From Idiomarina loihiensis L2TR (lineage in GTDB: Bacteria; Pseudomonadota; Gammaproteobacteria; Enterobacterales; Alteromonadaceae): a stretch of 32,000 nucleotides of DNA. Positions 6,431-30,014 of this stretch are shown one piece after another. A program made the translations under genes and the position numbers. Position 1 is the stretch's first letter. The number at the start of each line of letters is the position of its first letter. The notes beneath the pieces are model-generated. The model was not told where the DNA came from and made no database searches. It saw only the letters and a list, made by a program, of their open reading frames with translations. The stretch spans positions 600,001 to 632,000 of the forward strand of contig NC_006512.1 in NCBI RefSeq assembly GCF_000008465.1, read 5' to 3'.

Positions 6431-6486
6431 GTAGCCTGACATTTATGTCAGGTTCTGCACCCCACCTGACATAAATGTCAGGCTAC
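6431..6486. repeat. REPIN-like double palindrome, copy 1 (A-variant arm / A-variant arm)
   Basis: GTAGCCTGACATTTATGTCAGG, then a 12-nt spacer, then CCTGACATAAATGTCAGGCTAC. The two arms are reverse complements of each other, and each arm is itself a hairpin. Confidence 0.9.
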
Positions 6487-8074: not shown

Positions 8075-8130
8075 GTAGCCTGACGTTTACGTCAGGTTCG
8101 ATATCCCACCTGACATAAATGTCAGGCTAC
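8075..8130. repeat. REPIN-like double palindrome, copy 2 (G-variant arm / A-variant arm)
   Basis: GTAGCCTGACGTTTACGTCAGG, then a 12-nt spacer, then CCTGACATAAATGTCAGGCTAC. The left arm (8075-8096) is identical to the reconstructed empty IS target. Confidence 0.9.
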
Positions 8131-8167: not shown

Positions 8168-8902
8168 ATGCTTAAAGAAGTAAAGGATATAGCCCACGAC
8201 GCTGGCGCTGCCATTATGGATATTTACCAAAGCAACGACTTTGATGTGCAGAAAAAGGCCGATGACAGTCCGCTGACCAAAGCAGATTTAGCGGCGCATA
8301 ACATCATTTGTGAGGGTTTGCGTGCGCTGGATATTCAGTACCCGGTTATTTCGGAAGAGTCGTCAGACATTAGTTGGGCGCAGCGCAAGCACTGGTGCCG
8401 CTATTGGCTGGTTGACCCGTTGGACGGCACCAAGGAATTTATTAAGCGAAATGACGAATTCACCGTGAACATTGCCCTGATAGAAAAGGGCGTGCCCATT
8501 TTAGGTGTGGTGTATGCTCCGGCGTTAGACGCCATGTATACCGGCGAGCGTGACCGCGGTGCGTTTTTAAACGACAAAGCGATTTCGGTTGCCACGCAGG
8601 AACCTGAAGCTTTGCGCGTTGTAGGCTCGCGCTCACACCCCTCACAGGAAACGACCGACTGGTTAGATGCTCAGGGCAAATCCTACGAGATGCTGGCGGT
8701 AGGCAGTTCACTGAAGTTTTGCCTGGTAGCCGAAGGTAAAGCCGACATTTATCCCCGCTTAAGCCCCACCAGCGAGTGGGACACCGCCGCAGCCCATGCG
8801 GTATTAAGTGCAGCAGGTGGGGACGTACTGACCCTTAACGGGGAACCGCTGCTGTACAACCAAAAAGCAGACTACCTCAACCCGCACTTTATTGCCCGGT
8901 GA
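8168..8902 (+). CDS. cysQ: 3'(2'),5'-bisphosphate nucleotidase
   Basis: 244-aa ORF with inositol-monophosphatase-family motifs (ISEES, WLVDPLDGTKEF, EWDTAAAHAV) and a length typical of CysQ. Confidence 0.85.
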   Translation: MLKEVKDIAHDAGAAIMDIYQSNDFDVQKKADDSPLTKADLAAHNIICEGLRALDIQYPVISEESSDISWAQRKHWCRYWLVDPLDGTKEFIKRNDEFTVNIALIEKGVPILGVVYAPALDAMYTGERDRGAFLNDKAISVATQEPEALRVVGSRSHPSQETTDWLDAQGKSYEMLAVGSSLKFCLVAEGKADIYPRLSPTSEWDTAAAHAVLSAAGGDVLTLNGEPLLYNQKADYLNPHFIAR

Positions 8903-8910
8903 TTGGTGTT

Positions 8911-8919
8911 GTAGCCTGA
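8911..8919. repeat. Left stub (GTAGCCTGA) of REPIN copy 3, which is split by the IS
   Basis: Joining 8911-8919 to 10302-10348 rebuilds a complete REPIN: GTAGCCTGA+CGTTTACGTCAGG, then a spacer, then CCTGACATGAATGTCAGGCTAC. Confidence 0.85.
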
Positions 8920-9004
8920 TGAGATGGTCCCCTCCCTCCTAAGCGGCATCGCAATGTGCCAATATAGAGGTTCAAGCTTCTATAGAACAGAGTGGAGAGG
9001 ACCA

Positions 9005-10036
9005 ATGGCTATTGTAAACAGAATTGCCCTGGATTTGGCAAAGGATTTTATTCAGGTTTTGGCGCTGGATGAAAATGAGCAGGAAGTTTTTAATAAAAAA
9101 CTGCGCAGCAATAAAGTGTTAGCGAAGCTGGCGACGCTGAGCCGTACGGATGACTGTGAAGTAGCGGTTGAGTCCTGCGGCATGAGTCATTACTGGCGCC
9201 GCGAATGTGAAAAGCTGGGTTATAAAACGGTGGCGTTGCCACCGCGTTTCGTCAAAGCGTACCTGCAGGGTGAGAAGAACGATGCGAATGACGCCCGGGC
9301 AATAGCCGAGGCGGCATCACGACCCAACCGTCAGACGGTCAGGCTGAAAAGCATTGAGCAGCAGGACTTAGCATTGATGGTCAATCAGCGGGAAGGCTTC
9401 GTGCAGACGAGAACGCAGTTCTCGAATAGGTTGCGGGGGCAACTGGCCGAATACGGCATTCTTTTACCGAAGCGAGTCGGTACGATATTACAGAGAGTAC
9501 CGGAGGTACTGGAAGACGACAGCAATGCGCTGACGCTTCAGTCACGGGACCTCATCAACCGGCTCTATCAGATGCTGCGAGCGGTGGATGAAGAAGTTAA
9601 AGCGCTGGATAAGCACTTAGCGACACAGGCCGAAAGGAATGAAGACAGTCAGCGGCTGATGACCCTGCCGGGTATCGGACCGATAACAGCGACCTCGCTG
9701 CTGGCACTGATAGGTGATGTGAGTGAATTTAAACGCGGCCGCAACCTGTCGGAATACCTGGGACTGGTACCACGGCAAAACAGCAGTGGCGGTAAAGACC
9801 GTTTAGGCGGTATTACCAAAAAAGGGAACACCAAACTCAGGACACTGCTGGTGCATGGCGCCCGCTCGGCACTGCGGGTGGCACAACAGCGCCACGACAG
9901 GCTGAGCCTCTGGGCACAGGATGTCGCTAAACGCAGAGGCAACAACGTTGCAGCGGTGGCACTGGCTAACAAGCACGCCCGGATAATCTGGGCGATGTTA
10001 AAGAATAAAGAAGATTACCGGATGACTGCTGCTTAA
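9005..10036 (+). CDS. IS110-family DEDD transposase/recombinase
   Basis: Starts MAIVNRIALDLAKDF.. (the N-terminal DEDD RuvC-like domain begins ..GIDLAK-like). The C-terminal Transposase_20-like region reads LMTLPGIGPITATSLLALIGDVSEFKRGRNLSEYLGLVPRQNSSGGKDRLGGITKKGN. A GGAGAGG RBS precedes the ATG at 9005. The track start at 8924 falls inside the terminal repeat. Confidence 0.9.
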   Translation: MAIVNRIALDLAKDFIQVLALDENEQEVFNKKLRSNKVLAKLATLSRTDDCEVAVESCGMSHYWRRECEKLGYKTVALPPRFVKAYLQGEKNDANDARAIAEAASRPNRQTVRLKSIEQQDLALMVNQREGFVQTRTQFSNRLRGQLAEYGILLPKRVGTILQRVPEVLEDDSNALTLQSRDLINRLYQMLRAVDEEVKALDKHLATQAERNEDSQRLMTLPGIGPITATSLLALIGDVSEFKRGRNLSEYLGLVPRQNSSGGKDRLGGITKKGNTKLRTLLVHGARSALRVAQQRHDRLSLWAQDVAKRRGNNVAAVALANKHARIIWAMLKNKEDYRMTAA

Positions 10037-10282
10037 CAGCATTCAGTAAAAGAGCACAGCGAAGGTTCATTCCTTCCGGGAGTTGCAAACGTCAACAGGA
10101 TGGTAAAATAGGGTAAACCGACGACAACTGAGACTGTTGAACGTCCGTACATAAAGTACGTTAGCCTGATAAGCCAGTTGTCGTGCGGAGTTCATCCAGG
10201 CCAGGTGCGCAAAGCGCGCACCATAAACAGGCCGTATATATGCGAGCGCCCCGACATTTACCACGAGTTGCCGTTGCAAAAC
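10037..10282 (+). ncRNA. Candidate bridge/seek RNA of IS copy A
   Basis: This non-coding stretch lies between the transposase stop and the right subterminal repeat. There is a 10-bp perfect stem (10121-10130/10175-10184) and an inner hairpin (10146-10150/10156-10160). Together they enclose an internal loop carrying AACGTC (10140-10145, antisense to target GACGTT) and TAGCCTGA (10162-10169, sense copy of the target left half). A second hairpin/loop (10192-10242) carries TCATC (antisense to core+left end, GATGA) and ATATATG (sense copy of right end+core). The exact RNA ends are unknown. Confidence 0.5.
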
Positions 10283-10301
10283 GGGAGGGGACCATATATG
10301 A
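10274..10301 (+). promoter_or_regulatory. Right-end half of a putative circle-junction promoter (TTGCAA-17-TA|TGAT)
   Basis: TTGCAA lies at 10274-10279 with a 17-nt spacer. Joining the right end, the TGA core and the left end would create TATGAT as a -10 directed toward the transposase gene. In the integrated state the hexamer is TATGAC. Confidence 0.35.
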
Positions 10302-10348
10302 CGTTTACGTCAGGAGCGATGCCCCACCTGACATGAATGTCAGGCTAC
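10299..10348. repeat. Right remainder of REPIN copy 3
   Basis: TGACGTTTACGTCAGG, then spacer agcgatgcccca, then CCTGACATGAATGTCAGGCTAC. Confidence 0.85.
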
Positions 10349-10434
10349 GTGCAGTTAAATGTGAGTAAATGTCGATTTTTCCAAATGGATGCTAGACTCT
10401 TTAGGTAAGAAAGCAGGCCACATAGGTGAAACAC

Positions 10435-15703: not shown

Positions 15704-15759
15704 GTAGCCTGACATTTATGTCAGGTGAGATACCGTTCCTGACGTAAACGTCAGGCTAC
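15704..15759. repeat. REPIN-like double palindrome, copy 4 (A-variant arm / G-variant arm)
   Basis: GTAGCCTGACATTTATGTCAGG, then spacer tgagataccgtt, then CCTGACGTAAACGTCAGGCTAC. The right arm (15738-15759) is identical to the empty IS target in the opposite orientation. Confidence 0.9.
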
Positions 15760-28575: not shown

Positions 28576-28626
28576 GTAGCCTGGCATTTATGTCAGGTGA
28601 GATGCTGATTCCTGACGTAAACGTCA
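28576..28626. repeat. REPIN copy 5, left part (A-variant arm with one G substitution, spacer, and start of the G-variant arm up to TCA)
   Basis: GTAGCCTGGCATTTATGTCAGG, then spacer tgagatgctgatt, then CCTGACGTAAACGTCA. The arm is completed by GGCTAC at 30009-30014, on the far side of the IS. Confidence 0.85.
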
Positions 28627-28642
28627 TATATGGTCCCCTCCC

Positions 28643-28888
28643 GTTTTGCAACGGCAACTCGTGGTAAATGTCGGGGCGCTCGCATATATACGGCCTGTTT
28701 ATGGTGCGCGCTTTGCGCACCTGGCCTGGATGAACTCCGCACGACAACTGGCTTATCAGGCTAACGTACTTTATGTACGGACGTTCAACAGTCTCAGTTG
28801 TCGTCGGTTTACCCTATTTTACCATCCTGTTGACGTTTGCAACTCCCGGAAGGAATGAACCTTCGCTGTGCTCTTTTACTGAATGCTG
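28643..28888 (-). ncRNA. Candidate bridge/seek RNA of IS copy B
   Basis: This is the mirror image of 10037-10282. For example, TCAGGCTA at 28756-28763 is the reverse complement of TAGCCTGA. Confidence 0.5.
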
Positions 28889-29920
28889 TTAAGCAGCAGT
28901 CATCCGGTAATCTTCTTTATTCTTTAACATCGCCCAGATTATCCGGGCGTGCTTGTTAGCCAGTGCCACCGCTGCAACGTTGTTGCCTCTGCGTTTAGCG
29001 ACATCCTGTGCCCAGAGGCTCAGCCTGTCGTGGCGCTGTTGTGCCACCCGCAGTGCCGAGCGGGCGCCATGCACCAGCAGTGTCCTGAGTTTGGTGTTCC
29101 CTTTTTTGGTAATACCGCCTAAACGGTCTTTACCGCCACTGCTGTTTTGCCGTGGTACCAGTCCCAGGTATTCCGACAGGTTGCGGCCGCGTTTAAATTC
29201 ACTCACATCACCTATCAGTGCCAGCAGCGAGGTCGCTGTTATCGGTCCGATACCCGGCAGGGTCATCAGCCGCTGACTGTCTTCATTCCTTTCGGCCTGT
29301 GTCGCTAAGTGCTTATCCAGCGCTTTAACTTCTTCATCCACCGCTCGCAGCATCTGATAGAGCCGGTTGATGAGGTCCCGTGACTGAAGCGTCAGCGCAT
29401 TGCTGTCGTCTTCCAGTACCTCCGGTACTCTCTGTAATATCGTACCGACTCGCTTCGGTAAAAGAATGCCGTATTCGGCCAGTTGCCCCCGCAACCTATT
29501 CGAGAACTGCGTTCTCGTCTGCACGAAGCCTTCCCGCTGATTGACCATCAATGCTAAGTCCTGCTGCTCAATGCTTTTCAGCCTGACCGTCTGACGGTTG
29601 GGTCGTGATGCCGCCTCGGCTATTGCCCGGGCGTCATTCGCATCGTTCTTCTCACCCTGCAGGTACGCTTTGACGAAACGCGGTGGCAACGCCACCGTTT
29701 TATAACCCAGCTTTTCACATTCGCGGCGCCAGTAATGACTCATGCCGCAGGACTCAACCGCTACTTCACAGTCATCCGTACGGCTCAGCGTCGCCAGCTT
29801 CGCTAACACTTTATTGCTGCGCAGTTTTTTATTAAAAACTTCCTGCTCATTTTCATCCAGCGCCAAAACCTGAATAAAATCCTTTGCCAAATCCAGGGCA
29901 ATTCTGTTTACAATAGCCAT
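28889..29920 (-). CDS. IS110-family DEDD transposase/recombinase (copy B)
   Basis: The translation is identical to that of 9005-10036. Confidence 0.9.
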   Translation of the reverse strand: MAIVNRIALDLAKDFIQVLALDENEQEVFNKKLRSNKVLAKLATLSRTDDCEVAVESCGMSHYWRRECEKLGYKTVALPPRFVKAYLQGEKNDANDARAIAEAASRPNRQTVRLKSIEQQDLALMVNQREGFVQTRTQFSNRLRGQLAEYGILLPKRVGTILQRVPEVLEDDSNALTLQSRDLINRLYQMLRAVDEEVKALDKHLATQAERNEDSQRLMTLPGIGPITATSLLALIGDVSEFKRGRNLSEYLGLVPRQNSSGGKDRLGGITKKGNTKLRTLLVHGARSALRVAQQRHDRLSLWAQDVAKRRGNNVAAVALANKHARIIWAMLKNKEDYRMTAA

Positions 29921-30005
29921 TGGTCCTCTCCACTCTGTTCTATAGAAGCTTGAACCTCTATATTGGCACATTGCGATGCCGCTTAGGAGGGAGGGGACCA
30001 TCTCA

Positions 30006-30014
30006 TCAGGCTAC
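30006..30014. repeat. Right stub (TCAGGCTAC) of REPIN copy 5
   Basis: It completes the G-variant arm that the IS interrupts. Confidence 0.85.

What the first reader, a model, noticed from the sequence alone, without database searches (positions are those of the whole stretch)
10037..10298. 3' non-coding region of the IS has two internal loops matching target and donor: a candidate bridge/seek RNA
**Loop 1 (candidate target-binding loop)**
- It is closed by a perfect 10-bp stem (10121-10130 / 10175-10184) and capped by a CGTAC-ataaa-GTACG hairpin.
- Its 3' strand contains TAGCCTGA (10162-10169), identical to the target top strand left of and including the core (8912-8919).
- Its 5' strand contains AACGTC (10140-10145), the reverse complement of GACGTT, which is the core GA plus the right target (10300-10305).

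**Loop 2 (candidate donor-binding loop)**
- It sits around the 7-bp hairpin 10204-10210/10216-10222 plus a GGCC/GGCC helix.
- It repeats the same logic for the IS ends. Its 3' strand has ATATATG (10236-10242), which equals the right end plus the core TG.
- Its 5' strand has TCATC (10192-10196), the reverse complement of GATGA, which is the core GA plus the left end.

**Further matches**
- The two guide matches in each loop overlap at GA. This fits the TGA found on both sides of each insertion.
- An additional 8-nt antisense match to the target (AAACGTCA, 10087-10094) lies further upstream.

**Established knowledge**
- IS110-family recombinases use an element-encoded bispecific RNA with a target loop and a donor loop. 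Each loop pairs with opposite strands on either side of the core.
- In IS1111-type elements this RNA is encoded downstream of the transposase.

**Inference**
- This element encodes such an RNA, programmed for the REPIN G-arm.
Basis: partly seen in the sequence, partly recalled or inferred. Interest (0 to 1): 0.8.

Follow-up and report, generated by a model that had tools for sequence, protein, structure and literature searches.

The report
IS1111-type insertion sequence guide RNA
The non-coding tail of this Idiomarina insertion sequence very probably encodes the two-loop guide RNA (bridge RNA / seekRNA) that IS1111-type elements use to match their own joined ends to a chosen DNA target, here a repetitive palindrome, so it is a correct reading of an already known kind of system.

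Summary
In detail: every quoted string sits at the stated coordinates. Inside the window the matches are only suggestive (p 0.01-0.36 each), so the case rests on comparison.

- **Close relatives.** Relatives with 83% transposase identity sit in a different palindrome. Their loop-1 strands changed to match their own flanks. Where the crossover dinucleotide is CG instead of TG, both loops and both junctions changed together.
- **Wider family.** In 48 independent lineages (38-100% identity), each of the four guide segments matches only its own cognate flank or end, and only in its own loop strand (z = 6-22).
- **Structure.** The helices covary strongly: 94% of cells paired, against 30-38% when the partners are slid.
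- **Known elements.** A covariance model built from this family hits exactly the two IS copies in the window. It also finds the same RNA downstream of the transposase in IS4321 and IS5708.

- The shared core is TG, not GA or TGA.
- The extra upstream 8-nt match is not supported as a guide; it lies in a covarying helix.

Verdict: a new member of a known kind, the IS1111-group bridge/seekRNA, here aimed at a REP/REPIN arm. No transcript or activity data exist for this element.

The parts
8911..8916 (+). Left target (LT) GTAGCC, the outer stem of a REP/REPIN arm
   Evidence: Uninterrupted arms GTAGCC-TG-ACGTTTACGTCAGG occur at 8075 and, on the minus strand, at 15758.
8917..10298 (+). IS copy 1, 1382 bp, with Partridge-Hall type boundaries: 7-nt left extension TGATGAG, then IRL ... 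IRR, then 3-nt right extension ATA
   Evidence: Compared with empty REP sites. Ends mapped. 100% identical to copy 2.
8917..8918 (+). Core TG at the left junction
   Evidence: In relatives L015/L018 it is CG at both junctions and in both loops.
8924..8936 (+). Left subterminal inverted repeat ATGGTCCCCTCCC
9005..10036 (+). Transposase gene: 343 aa, DEDD_Tnp_IS110 + Transposase_20 domains, GL-P----SG motif in LGLVPRQNSSG
10061..10076 (+). Hairpin just after the stop codon (GAAGG-TTCATT-CCTTC); role unknown
   Evidence: Relative L023 has a lengthened compensatory version.
10082..10086 (+). 5' strand of a predicted long-range helix with 10246-10250 (family consensus AUUGC/GCAAU). It would close a multiloop that holds the donor-binding strands
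   Evidence: RNAalifold on 40 lineages. The covariation is limited, so this is a prediction.
10087..10094 (+). It lies in a subfamily helix 10085-10096 / 10269-10279 and is not supported as a guide
   Evidence: Three compensatory variants of the helix. No own-versus-other signal for this region (z = 1.0).
10121..10249 (+). Conserved core of the RNA: target-binding arm plus donor-binding arm
   Evidence: Covariance model R1, 81.4 bits, E = 8e-22. Structure covariation.
10121..10130 (+). Closing stem of the target-binding arm, 5' strand; pairs with 10175-10184
   Evidence: Eight of its pairs show compensatory changes across 46 lineages.
10140..10145 (+). Target loop, 5' guide AACGTC. It is complementary to the top strand G(core)+ACGTT at 10300-10305
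   Evidence: Relatives carry AGGCGC against the flank GCGCCT in the same register. Family test z = 22.
10146..10160 (+). Cap hairpin of the target loop (CGTAC-ATAAA-GTACG)
   Evidence: Covarying pairs 10147-10150 / 10156-10159.
10162..10168 (+). Target loop, 3' guide TAGCCTG = LT(-5..-1) + core TG. It is identical to the top strand, so it pairs with the bottom strand. It is followed by AU, which matches the first two bases of the IS left end
   Evidence: It tracks each copy's own left flank in relatives: TAGCTTG, TAACTTG, TAGGTCG. Family test z = 20.8.
10175..10184 (+). Closing stem of the target-binding arm, 3' strand
10192..10196 (+). Donor loop, 5' guide TCATC. It is complementary to G(core)+ATGA of the left end (8918-8922)
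   Evidence: It covaries with the left end in relatives: GATGTAAT in L025, AATGGG in L027. Family test z = 6.4.
10199..10233 (+). Donor arm helices: GGCC 10199-10202 / 10230-10233, and hairpin 10204-10210 / 10216-10222
   Evidence: C-G to A-U compensation in 14 lineages. A hairpin of at least 4 bp is present in 46 of 46 lineages.
10236..10242 (+). Donor loop, 3' guide ATATATG = right end ATATA + core TG
   Evidence: It becomes ATATACG where the core is CG (L015/L018). Family test z = 14.6.
10274..10279 (+). TTGCAA, a candidate -35 of a promoter that is completed only when the ends are joined (TTGCAA-N17-TATGAT)
   Evidence: No promoter-like site in the integrated element.
10283..10295 (+). Right subterminal inverted repeat GGGAGGGGACCAT
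10299..10305 (+). Core TG at the right junction, plus right target ACGTT
28627..30008 (-). IS copy 2, identical in sequence to copy 1 and inserted at the same position of another REP arm
28676..28804 (-). RNA core of copy 2
   Evidence: R1 hit, 81.4 bits.
8076..8087 (+). Unoccupied perfect target TAGCCTGACGTT
15747..15758 (-). Unoccupied perfect target TAGCCTGACGTT

Best explanation
**What it is.** Window 8917-10298 is an active IS1111-group insertion sequence of Idiomarina. Its 3' non-coding region encodes a bispecific guide RNA of the bridge RNA / seekRNA kind. The conserved core is 10121-10249. A longer form probably runs from about 10082 to at least 10250.

**Proposed mechanism (steps inferred unless marked shown).**
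1. The element excises as a circle. Joining the right and left ends creates the promoter TTGCAA-N17-TATGAT. This promoter transcribes the transposase gene and the downstream RNA, which is then trimmed.
2. The target arm is a 10-bp stem enclosing an internal loop capped by a hairpin. It reads the REP arm GTAGCC-TG-ACGTT.
   - The 3' strand UAGCCUG pairs with the bottom strand of left target plus core.
   - The 5' strand AACGUC pairs with the top strand of the second core base plus the right target.
3. The donor strands flank the GGCC helix and hairpin, probably within a multiloop, and read the joined ends.
   - AUAUAUG pairs with the bottom strand of right end plus core.
   - UCAUC pairs with the top strand of core G plus the left end ATGA.
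4. The DEDD/serine transposase exchanges strands at the shared TG and inserts the element without a duplication.

**Shown here by sequence comparison:** the architecture, the guide-flank and guide-end covariation, the helix covariation, and homology of the RNA to that of named IS1111 elements.

**Inferred:** transcription, processing, binding to the transposase and the chemistry.
For: - **Element class.** PF01548 + PF02371 transposase. 13-bp subterminal repeats, 7/3-nt extensions and no duplication relative to empty REP sites. Two 100% identical copies at the same position of two REP arms.
- **Natural retargeting.** In elements with 83% identical transposase (L015-L022), the loop-1 3' strand equals each copy's own left flank: TAGCTTG, TAACTTG or TAGGTCG. 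The 5' strand becomes AGGCGC against the flank GCGCCT. In L015/L018 the core is CG at both junctions, in loop 1 and in loop 2.
- **Donor loop.** It follows the left end in 48-52% relatives: GATGTAAT in L025 and AATGGG in L027.
- **Family test, whole non-coding region.** An alignment-free own-versus-other test on 49 lineages gave p <= 1e-4 for all four guide classes.
- **Family test, by loop strand.** On 48 lineages each query matches only its predicted loop strand, with z = 20.8, 22.0, 14.6 and 6.4. All other query-region pairs stayed at |z| <= 2.9.
- **Structure.** 21 pairs are 94.4% paired, against 30-38% for slid partners. The covariation score is 0.653 against 0.06-0.12, and 0 of 500 shuffles reach it.
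- **Covariance model R1.** In the window it hits only 10121-10249 (+) and 28676-28804 (-). [quoted passage not shown] It also hits IS4321, IS5708 and two unnamed plasmid elements. The IS4321 flanks obey the same four-guide logic.
- **Published agreement.** The segment order matches that published for IS1111-family seekRNAs. Sizes fit the reported 70-100 nt short and 145-170 nt long forms (PMC11187229). PMC11208160 predicts bridge RNAs in the right end of 93% of IS1111 elements, often with donor-binding nucleotides in a multiloop.
- **Promoter.** The predicted junction -10 matches TATAAT at 5 or more of 6 positions in 37 of 42 lineages.
Against: - There is no transcript, processing or activity evidence for this element.
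- Rfam 15 has no model that matches, at the gathering score or at E up to 10. The published covariance models could not be run.
- Inside the window the individual matches are weak. The loop's own antisense match is 6 nt, and the donor 5' match is 5 nt with p = 0.36.
- The G.U versus A.C count in the helices (29 vs 22) does not settle which strand is the RNA. The strand rests on co-orientation with the transposase gene and on published mapping in relatives.
- For ISEc11, an 82-nt short seekRNA was sufficient for movement (PMC11187229). The donor strands may therefore not be needed at every step.
- The closure of the donor region is ambiguous: an invariant 2-bp helix 10185-86/10246-47, or the long-range helix 10082-86/10246-50.
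- One pair of the 3-bp inner helix is an A-C mismatch in this subfamily (10133/10174).
Confidence: 0.88

Rival explanations
1. Target-only guide. The RNA works as a seekRNA whose target arm (about 10117-10188) selects the REP site. The second region (10185-10249) does not pair with the IS ends during insertion. The ends would be recognised by the transposase through the subterminal repeats. The donor-like segments would serve another step, such as excision, folding or processing.
For: PMC11187229 reports that the 82-nt short seekRNA of ISEc11 supported movement at least as well as the long form, and that the role of the long form was not established. The donor 5' match in the window is only 5 nt.
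Against: Both donor strands covary with the ends of their own element and only in their own positions (z = 14.6 and 6.4). The change of core from TG to CG is mirrored in the donor 3' strand. That is hard to explain without pairing to the end-core sequence at some step.
Confidence: 0.08
2. DNA-level signal. The conserved, covarying palindromes of the 3' region act as DNA (hairpins or cruciforms, or protein-binding sites near the right end), not as a transcribed RNA.
For: Helix covariation cannot by itself tell RNA from single-stranded DNA. The G.U versus A.C test was inconclusive. No promoter-like site is found inside the integrated element.
Against: Relatives of the same family yield transposase-bound RNAs mapping to this region, and those RNAs are required in trans (PMC11187229). 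The four-segment complementarity to opposite strands of target and donor is the signature of a guide. A promoter is predicted at the joined ends, upstream of the transposase gene and this region.
Confidence: 0.02
3. Coincidence. An ordinary structured 3' untranslated region or terminator happens to contain short matches to a very abundant genomic repeat.
For: TAGCCTGA occurs 13 times in the window. Each in-window match taken alone has p = 0.01-0.36.
Against: Matches follow the flanks in relatives that use other targets. No terminator-like site lies in 10037-10298. The structure is conserved down to 35% transposase identity.
Confidence: 0.01

Closest known systems
seekRNA of IS1111-family elements ISPa11, ISEc11, ISKpn4 and ISPst6 (Siddiquee et al. 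2024, PMC11187229)
   Same: - It is encoded in the long non-coding region downstream of a roughly 340-aa DEDD transposase.
- The element has subterminal repeats with 7/3-nt extensions and makes no duplication.
- A segment complementary to the top strand lies 5' of a segment complementary to the bottom strand, and the two overlap at the insertion point.
- ISPa11 also targets a REP sequence.
- Natural retargeting between close relatives is seen there (ISEc11 / ISXne4) and here (window type versus L015-L022).
   Different: - This is a different host (Idiomarina), with a different REP target and different guide sequences.
- That paper did not assign a function to the long form. Here the donor-matching strands are shown to covary with the ends.
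- There are no biochemical data for this element.
- Direct sequence comparison with those four elements was not possible with the collections at hand.
IS621 bridge RNA (IS110 group; Durrant et al. 2024, PMC11208160; Hiraizumi et al. 2024, PMC11208158)
   Same: It is a bispecific RNA with a target-binding and a donor-binding loop. Each loop has two guide segments that pair with opposite strands on either side of a short shared core. The core must agree in both loops, in the donor and in the target.
   Different: - In IS621 the RNA lies in the left end, upstream of the gene. Here it lies in the right end, downstream.
- The order of the guide segments is reversed.
- The IS621 core is CT; here it is TG.
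- Here the donor strands probably sit in a multiloop rather than a simple internal loop, as PMC11208160 notes for many IS1111 members.
- This element has long subterminal repeats.
IS4321 / IS5075 (IS1111 family, target the inverted repeats of Tn21-type transposons; Partridge & Hall 2003, cited in PMC11187229)
   Same: Model R1 finds the same RNA 79 nt downstream of the IS4321 transposase gene (68.7 bits). Its four loop segments match its flanks and ends in the same registers. The end architecture is the same.
   Different: Transposase identity is 35%. The target is a transposon end rather than a REP. The core is TT.
REP-targeting IS110-family elements ISPpu9 / ISPpu10 of Pseudomonas putida (PMC12288879; bioRxiv 10.64898/2026.03.19.712850)
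   Same: Site- and orientation-specific insertion into repetitive extragenic palindromes, guided by an element-encoded small RNA downstream of the transposase gene (Ssr9 in ISPpu9).
   Different: The hosts and sequences are unrelated. ISPpu9 has extra free-standing copies of its RNA gene, whereas none was found in this window.

Membership tests
IS1111 group of the IS110 family (the element) | DEDD (RuvC-like) transposase with the IS110-type N-terminal domain and the PF02371 C-terminal domain, about 330-350 aa | tested here: met
   343 aa. PF01548 E = 8e-20 and PF02371 E = 1.8e-26. D10, E56, D93 and D96 are invariant among 12 homologs.
IS1111 group of the IS110 family (the element) | C-terminal GL-P----S(T)G motif | tested here: met
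   LGLVPRQNSSGG in the translation. G253, P256, S261 and G262 are invariant.
IS1111 group of the IS110 family (the element) | Subterminal inverted repeats of about 11-13 bp | tested here: met
   ATGGTCCCCTCCC 8924-8936 / GGGAGGGGACCAT 10283-10295, a perfect 13 bp.
IS1111 group of the IS110 family (the element) | Asymmetric terminal extensions (7 bp left, 3 bp right) and no target duplication | tested here: met
   The empty site is GTAGCC-TGACGTT. The occupied site is GTAGCC-[TGATGAG-IRL...IRR-ATA]-TGACGTT. The same layout is seen in 71 related elements.
IS1111 group of the IS110 family (the element) | The longer non-coding region lies downstream of the transposase gene | tested here: met
   262 nt downstream (10037-10298) against 88 nt upstream (8917-9004).
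IS1111 group of the IS110 family (the element) | A circular intermediate whose joined ends form a promoter | tested here: inconclusive
   In silico, the joined ends give TTGCAA-N17-TATGAT, whereas the integrated right junction gives TATGAC. The predicted junction -10 matches at 5 or more of 6 positions in 37 of 42 lineages. The circle itself cannot be observed with these tools.
Bridge RNA / seekRNA of IS110-family elements (the RNA) | Target loop with two segments complementary to opposite DNA strands on either side of the insertion point; in IS1111 types the top-strand complement comes first | tested here: met
   AACGTC (5') and TAGCCTG (3'). The order is that stated in PMC11187229.
Bridge RNA / seekRNA of IS110-family elements (the RNA) | Guide segments covary with the target in relatives that use other sites | tested here: met
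   (three guide variants matching their own flanks). (p <= 1e-4). (z = 20.8 and 22.0, confined to the predicted strands).
Bridge RNA / seekRNA of IS110-family elements (the RNA) | Donor loop with two segments matching the right end plus core and the left end | tested here: met
   ATATATG and TCATC. Covariation with the ends (z = 14.6 and 6.4). The core change TG to CG is mirrored.
Bridge RNA / seekRNA of IS110-family elements (the RNA) | Conserved secondary structure supported by compensatory changes | tested here: met
   16 of 21 pairs change on both sides. 94.4% of cells are paired against 30-38% when slid. 0 of 500 shuffles reach the observed values.
Bridge RNA / seekRNA of IS110-family elements (the RNA) | Homology to the RNA of recognised IS1111-family elements | tested here: met
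   R1 hits IS4321 (68.7 bits) and IS5708 (43 bits), downstream of their transposase genes. The IS4321 guides fit its flanks.
Bridge RNA / seekRNA of IS110-family elements (the RNA) | Match to a curated or published covariance model | not testable with these tools
   Rfam 15 returns nothing for this region at the gathering score or at E up to 10. The models of PMC11208160 are not available here.
Bridge RNA / seekRNA of IS110-family elements (the RNA) | The RNA is transcribed, binds the transposase and is required for movement | not testable with these tools
   This needs RNA-seq, co-purification and recombination assays.

The most novel reading that the evidence does not exclude
The wider family shows something the IS621 model does not predict.

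**Observation.** In 29 of 42 lineages the second 'core' position is A at the left junction and G at the right junction. Both 3' guide strands read G at that position.

**Inference on the crossover.** This suggests that strand exchange in these IS1111-type elements lies 5' of that position. The shared core would then be effectively one nucleotide.

**Inference on the donor guide.** The donor 3' guide matches the integrated right junction better than the circle junction.

**Inference on the A.** The A would be kept because it completes the junction promoter's -10 box (TATAAT or TACAAT).

**Alternative folds.** Two conserved GCAAU partners for one GAUUGC segment could allow alternative folds.

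**Reading.** Together these points could indicate a distinct excision/insertion logic in this subfamily.
Probability: 0.2. Interest if true: 0.5.

Novelty: new member of a known kind. Interest (0 to 1): 0.3.

Why it matters
It adds a well-supported natural example to the IS1111-type RNA-guided recombinases. The element is compact (1382 bp) and apparently active, with two identical copies. Its guide is aimed at a REP/REPIN arm.

Close relatives display stepwise natural reprogramming of the target loop. In one lineage the core changed in a coordinated way in both loops and at both junctions. Such series are useful for learning the rules of guide design in the IS1111 branch, which is less studied than IS621.

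It also explains why REPINs in Idiomarina genomes are interrupted at one precise position and in one orientation.

It does not reveal a new kind of system. PMC11208160 already predicted bridge RNAs in the right end of 93% of IS1111 elements.

Tried and rejected
- **Rfam 15.** Scanning the whole window at the gathering score, and 8850-10400 at E up to 10, returned only chance-level snoRNA/sRNA hits. No curated family is available for this RNA.
- **Promoter scan.** The sigma-70 scan of the integrated element found nothing. I therefore dropped the idea of an internal promoter for the RNA and considered the joined-ends promoter instead.
- **Upstream match AAACGTCA as a third guide.** Rejected. The antisense query shows no own-versus-other signal in that region (z = 1.0). 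The segment lies in a helix with three compensatory variants in the subfamily.
- **Sense query in the same upstream region.** It gave a weak signal (z = 2.9, p = 0.005, among 28 tests). I left this as unconfirmed.
- **Core = GA or TGA.** Rejected. The 83% relatives read TG-C on the right, and TG changes to CG as a unit.
- **G.U versus A.C counts to fix the transcribed strand.** Inconclusive (29 vs 22).
- **Orphan copies of the RNA in the window.** None found.
- **Literature search for a named Idiomarina IS110/IS1111 element.** Nothing relevant. ISfinder cannot be queried here.
- **Direct comparison with ISPa11 / ISEc11 / ISKpn4.** Not possible, because they are not identifiable by name in the collections. 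IS4321 and IS5708 were used instead.
Full report
**1. What is at the coordinates**

- The 10-bp stem is 10121-10130 / 10175-10184.
- The cap hairpin is 10146-10160.
- TAGCCTGA at 10162-10169 is identical to 8912-8919.
- AACGTC at 10140-10145 is the reverse complement of 10300-10305.
- The 7-bp hairpin is 10204-10210 / 10216-10222.
- The GGCC helix is more exactly 10199-10202 / 10230-10233.
- ATATATG is at 10236-10242, TCATC at 10192-10196 and AAACGTCA at 10087-10094.

The 262-nt stretch folds better than its shuffles (z = -3.9).

Taken alone, the matches are only moderately unlikely.
- Left target plus core: p = 0.045.
- The 8-nt antisense match: p = 0.022. This is the upstream one; the loop's own match is 6 nt.
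- Right end plus core: p = 0.009.
- The 5-nt left-end match: p = 0.36.
- The two target matches occurred together in none of 5000 shuffles.

The window by itself therefore gives a lead, not a proof.

**2. The element**

The ORF 9005-10036 encodes a 343-aa protein with DEDD_Tnp_IS110 and Transposase_20 domains. It carries the GL-P----SG motif.

Perfect 13-bp subterminal inverted repeats lie at 8924-8936 and 10283-10295.

Uninterrupted copies of the host repeat read GTAGCC-TGACGTTTACGTCAGG. The occupied site reads GTAGCC-[TGATGAG-IRL ... IRR-ATA]-TGACGTT. The element is therefore 8917-10298, 1382 bp. It has the 7-nt left and 3-nt right extensions, and the absence of duplication, that define IS1111-family members (PMC11187229).

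A second copy lies at 28627-30008 on the minus strand. It is 100% identical and sits at the same position of another repeat arm. Two perfect unoccupied targets remain in the window.

The host is Idiomarina. Copies with 95-100% transposase identity occur in I. abyssalis, I. zobellii and I. piscisalsi.

**3. Close relatives give a natural experiment**

Elements whose transposase is 83% identical (Idiomarina sp. CP080268 and metagenomes, L015-L022) sit in a different palindrome, GTAGCT-TG-CGCCnnnGGCGCAAGCTAC.

- The loop-1 3' strand equals the left flank of the same copy.
  - TTAGCTTGAT with flank GTAGCTTGA.
  - TTAACTTGAT with flank GTAACTTGA.
  - TTAGGTCGAT with flank GTAGGTCGA.
- The loop-1 5' strand has changed from AACGTC to AGGCGC, in the same register. 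AGGCGC is the complement of the new right flank GCGCCT.
- The cap hairpin changed compensatorily, from CGTAC/GTACG to GTTA/TAAC.
- On the right these elements read ATATA-TG-CGCC. The nucleotides common to target and element are therefore TG, not GA or TGA.
- In L015 and L018 the dinucleotide is CG at both junctions, in loop 1 (..GGTCGAT) and in loop 2 (GTATATACGCG instead of GTATATATGCG).

That last result is a four-place coordinated change. It is what a bispecific guide that reads the core in both loops requires.

**4. Distant relatives and the donor loop**

The ends are identical within the Idiomarina group, so I fetched more distant elements.

| Element | Transposase identity | Left end | Complement of the loop-2 5' strand |
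|---|---|---|---|
| Window | 100% | ATGAG | GATGA |
| L025 | 52% | ATGTAATGG | GATGTAAT |
| L027-L034 | 48% | ATGGGATGG | AATGGG |

In L027-L034 the loop-2 3' strand is GATATACG, against the right end CCATATA plus CG.

**5. Family-wide tests**

A script located the subterminal repeats and ends in 71 elements, which fall into about 50 independent non-coding-region clusters.

An alignment-free test asked whether an element's own non-coding region holds longer matches to its own flanks and ends than other elements' regions do. All four guide classes gave p <= 1e-4.

After aligning the regions, I repeated the test by sub-region (48 lineages).

| Query | Matches only in | Own vs other mean match length | z |
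|---|---|---|---|
| Left target + core (top strand) | Loop-1 3' strand | 6.19 vs 3.29 | 20.8 |
| Complement of core + right target | Loop-1 5' strand | 6.50 vs 3.36 | 22.0 |
| Right end + core | Loop-2 3' strand | 6.69 vs 4.06 | 14.6 |
| Complement of left end | Loop-2 5' strand | 5.65 vs 4.68 | 6.4 |

The other 24 query-region combinations stayed at |z| <= 2.9.

Typical guide extents:
- loop-1 3' strand: five left-target bases plus the two core bases;
- loop-1 5' strand: the core plus five or six right-target bases;
- loop-2 3' strand: five right-end bases plus the core;
- loop-2 5' strand: the first five to seven left-end bases.

**6. Structure**

I aligned 46 lineages over the two arms (A3). 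RNAalifold predicts:
- the closing stem of the target arm;
- a 3-bp inner helix (CCU/AGG);
- the cap hairpin;
- an invariant G-C/C-G pair of pairs;
- the GGCC helix.

Counting pairs gives 94.4% standard pairs, against 30-38% when the partners are slid. Sixteen of 21 pairs change on both sides. The covariation score is 0.653 against 0.06-0.12, and 0 of 500 shuffles reach it. The second hairpin is present in 46 of 46 lineages.

On a longer alignment, a conserved AUUGC upstream (window 10082-10086) pairs with GCAAU just after the donor 3' strand (10246-10250). That would put the donor strands in a multiloop, as PMC11208160 remarks for many IS1111 members. It would also give an RNA of about 170 nt, the size of the published long seekRNA.

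Within the Idiomarina subfamily, 10085-10096 pairs with 10269-10279 through three compensatory variants. This accounts for the conservation of AAACGTCA without making it a guide.

**7. Link to known elements**

A covariance model built from A3 (R1) gave these results.
- In the window it hits only 10121-10249 (+) and 28676-28804 (-), at 81.4 bits.
- It finds the RNA in annotated IS1111-family elements on plasmids: IS4321 (68.7 bits), IS5708 (43 bits) and two unnamed ones.

The IS4321 flanks fit the same logic.
- The target is GGATATT-TT-CCGTTTT.
- The loop-1 3' strand is ATATTTT.
- The complement of the loop-1 5' strand is TTCCGTTTT.
- The loop-2 3' strand is ATAGATT, which equals the right end plus TT.
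- The complement of the loop-2 5' strand contains ATGAG, which equals the left end.

Rfam 15 has no family for this RNA.

**8. Expression**

No sigma-70-like promoter or terminator lies in the relevant part of the integrated element. Joining the ends gives TTGCAA-N17-TATGAT, whereas the integrated right junction gives TATGAC. The predicted junction -10 matches TATAAT at 5 or more of 6 positions in 37 of 42 lineages. This fits the published view that the transposase mRNA and the long RNA are co-transcribed from the junction promoter of the circle (PMC11187229). Here it remains an inference.

**9. Verdict**

- the core is TG;
- the upstream match is not a guide;
- the RNA core is 10121-10249.

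The thing is an IS1111-group bridge/seekRNA programmed for a REP/REPIN arm. It works like the published systems and passes every membership feature that sequence analysis can test. Transcription, protein binding and requirement for movement are untested.

Bridge RNAs were already predicted in 93% of IS1111 elements (PMC11208160), and REP-targeting members are known (ISPa11, ISPpu9/10). This is therefore a new member of a known kind. Interest is modest. Its value lies in the clean natural reprogramming series, and in family-level details such as the asymmetry at the second core position, which were noticed but not resolved.

Noticed in passing
L026-L114 (related loci); window 8917-8918 and 10299-10300 for comparison: In 29 of 42 lineages the second position of the 'core' is A at the left junction and G at the right junction, while both 3' guide strands read G. 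The first position agrees at all four places in 36 of 42. Exchange therefore seems to lie 5' of the second position. The A completes a predicted junction -10 box (TATAAT or TACAAT). In the window subfamily both sides are G.
   Followed up: partly
L084 1952-2070 and 2108-2235; L035 520-649; L087 1-89: Model R1 finds two tandem RNA modules downstream of one transposase gene (L084). It also finds RNA modules upstream of the transposase gene in L035 and L087. These may be neighbouring IS copies or free-standing RNA genes like the extra ssr9 copies of ISPpu9.
   Followed up: no
window 10081-10096, 10246-10250, 10269-10279: The conserved GAUUGC-like segment has more than one possible partner. It can form a local hairpin (UUGC-NNN-GCAA in most relatives, GUUG...CAAC in the window). 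It can pair with GCAAU after the donor 3' strand. In the Idiomarina subfamily it can pair with a distal segment that overlaps the -35 TTGCAA. Alternative folds are conceivable.
   Followed up: partly
window 6431-6486, 8075-8130, 15704-15759, 10301-10348, 28577-28624: The window holds several REPIN-like pairs of inverted REP arms (GTAGCCTGAC[G/A]TTTA[C/T]GTCAGG ... CCTGACATAAATGTCAGGCTAC). Two arms are perfect unoccupied targets (8076-8087 on the plus strand, 15747-15758 on the minus strand). Others differ by one base in the right target (ACATT). Relative L002 carries the guide variant AATGTC, which would fit that ACATT variant.
   Followed up: partly
L004 (Idiomarina piscisalsi), right junction: This copy has TG at the left junction but CG at the right. 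Its right flank (ATGCTATTGCATCAGG) fits its 5' guide poorly. It may be an off-target insertion, or a rearrangement between copies.
   Followed up: no
L027/L031 and L028/L029: Two left flanks and two right flanks occur in all four combinations around identical elements. This points either to recombination between IS copies or to chimeric metagenome assemblies across the repeat.
   Followed up: no
window 10061-10076: A hairpin GAAGG-TTCATT-CCTTC lies 25 nt after the transposase stop codon. It is conserved in the Idiomarina subfamily and has a lengthened compensatory form in L023 (GAAGGTC...GACCTTC). Its role is unknown; it could be a processing or stability signal.
   Followed up: no
window 8168-8902: Copy 1 lies 15 bp after the stop codon of a co-oriented 244-aa ORF. 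Read-through transcription from that ORF could express the integrated copy's transposase and RNA, although the element has no promoter of its own.
   Followed up: no
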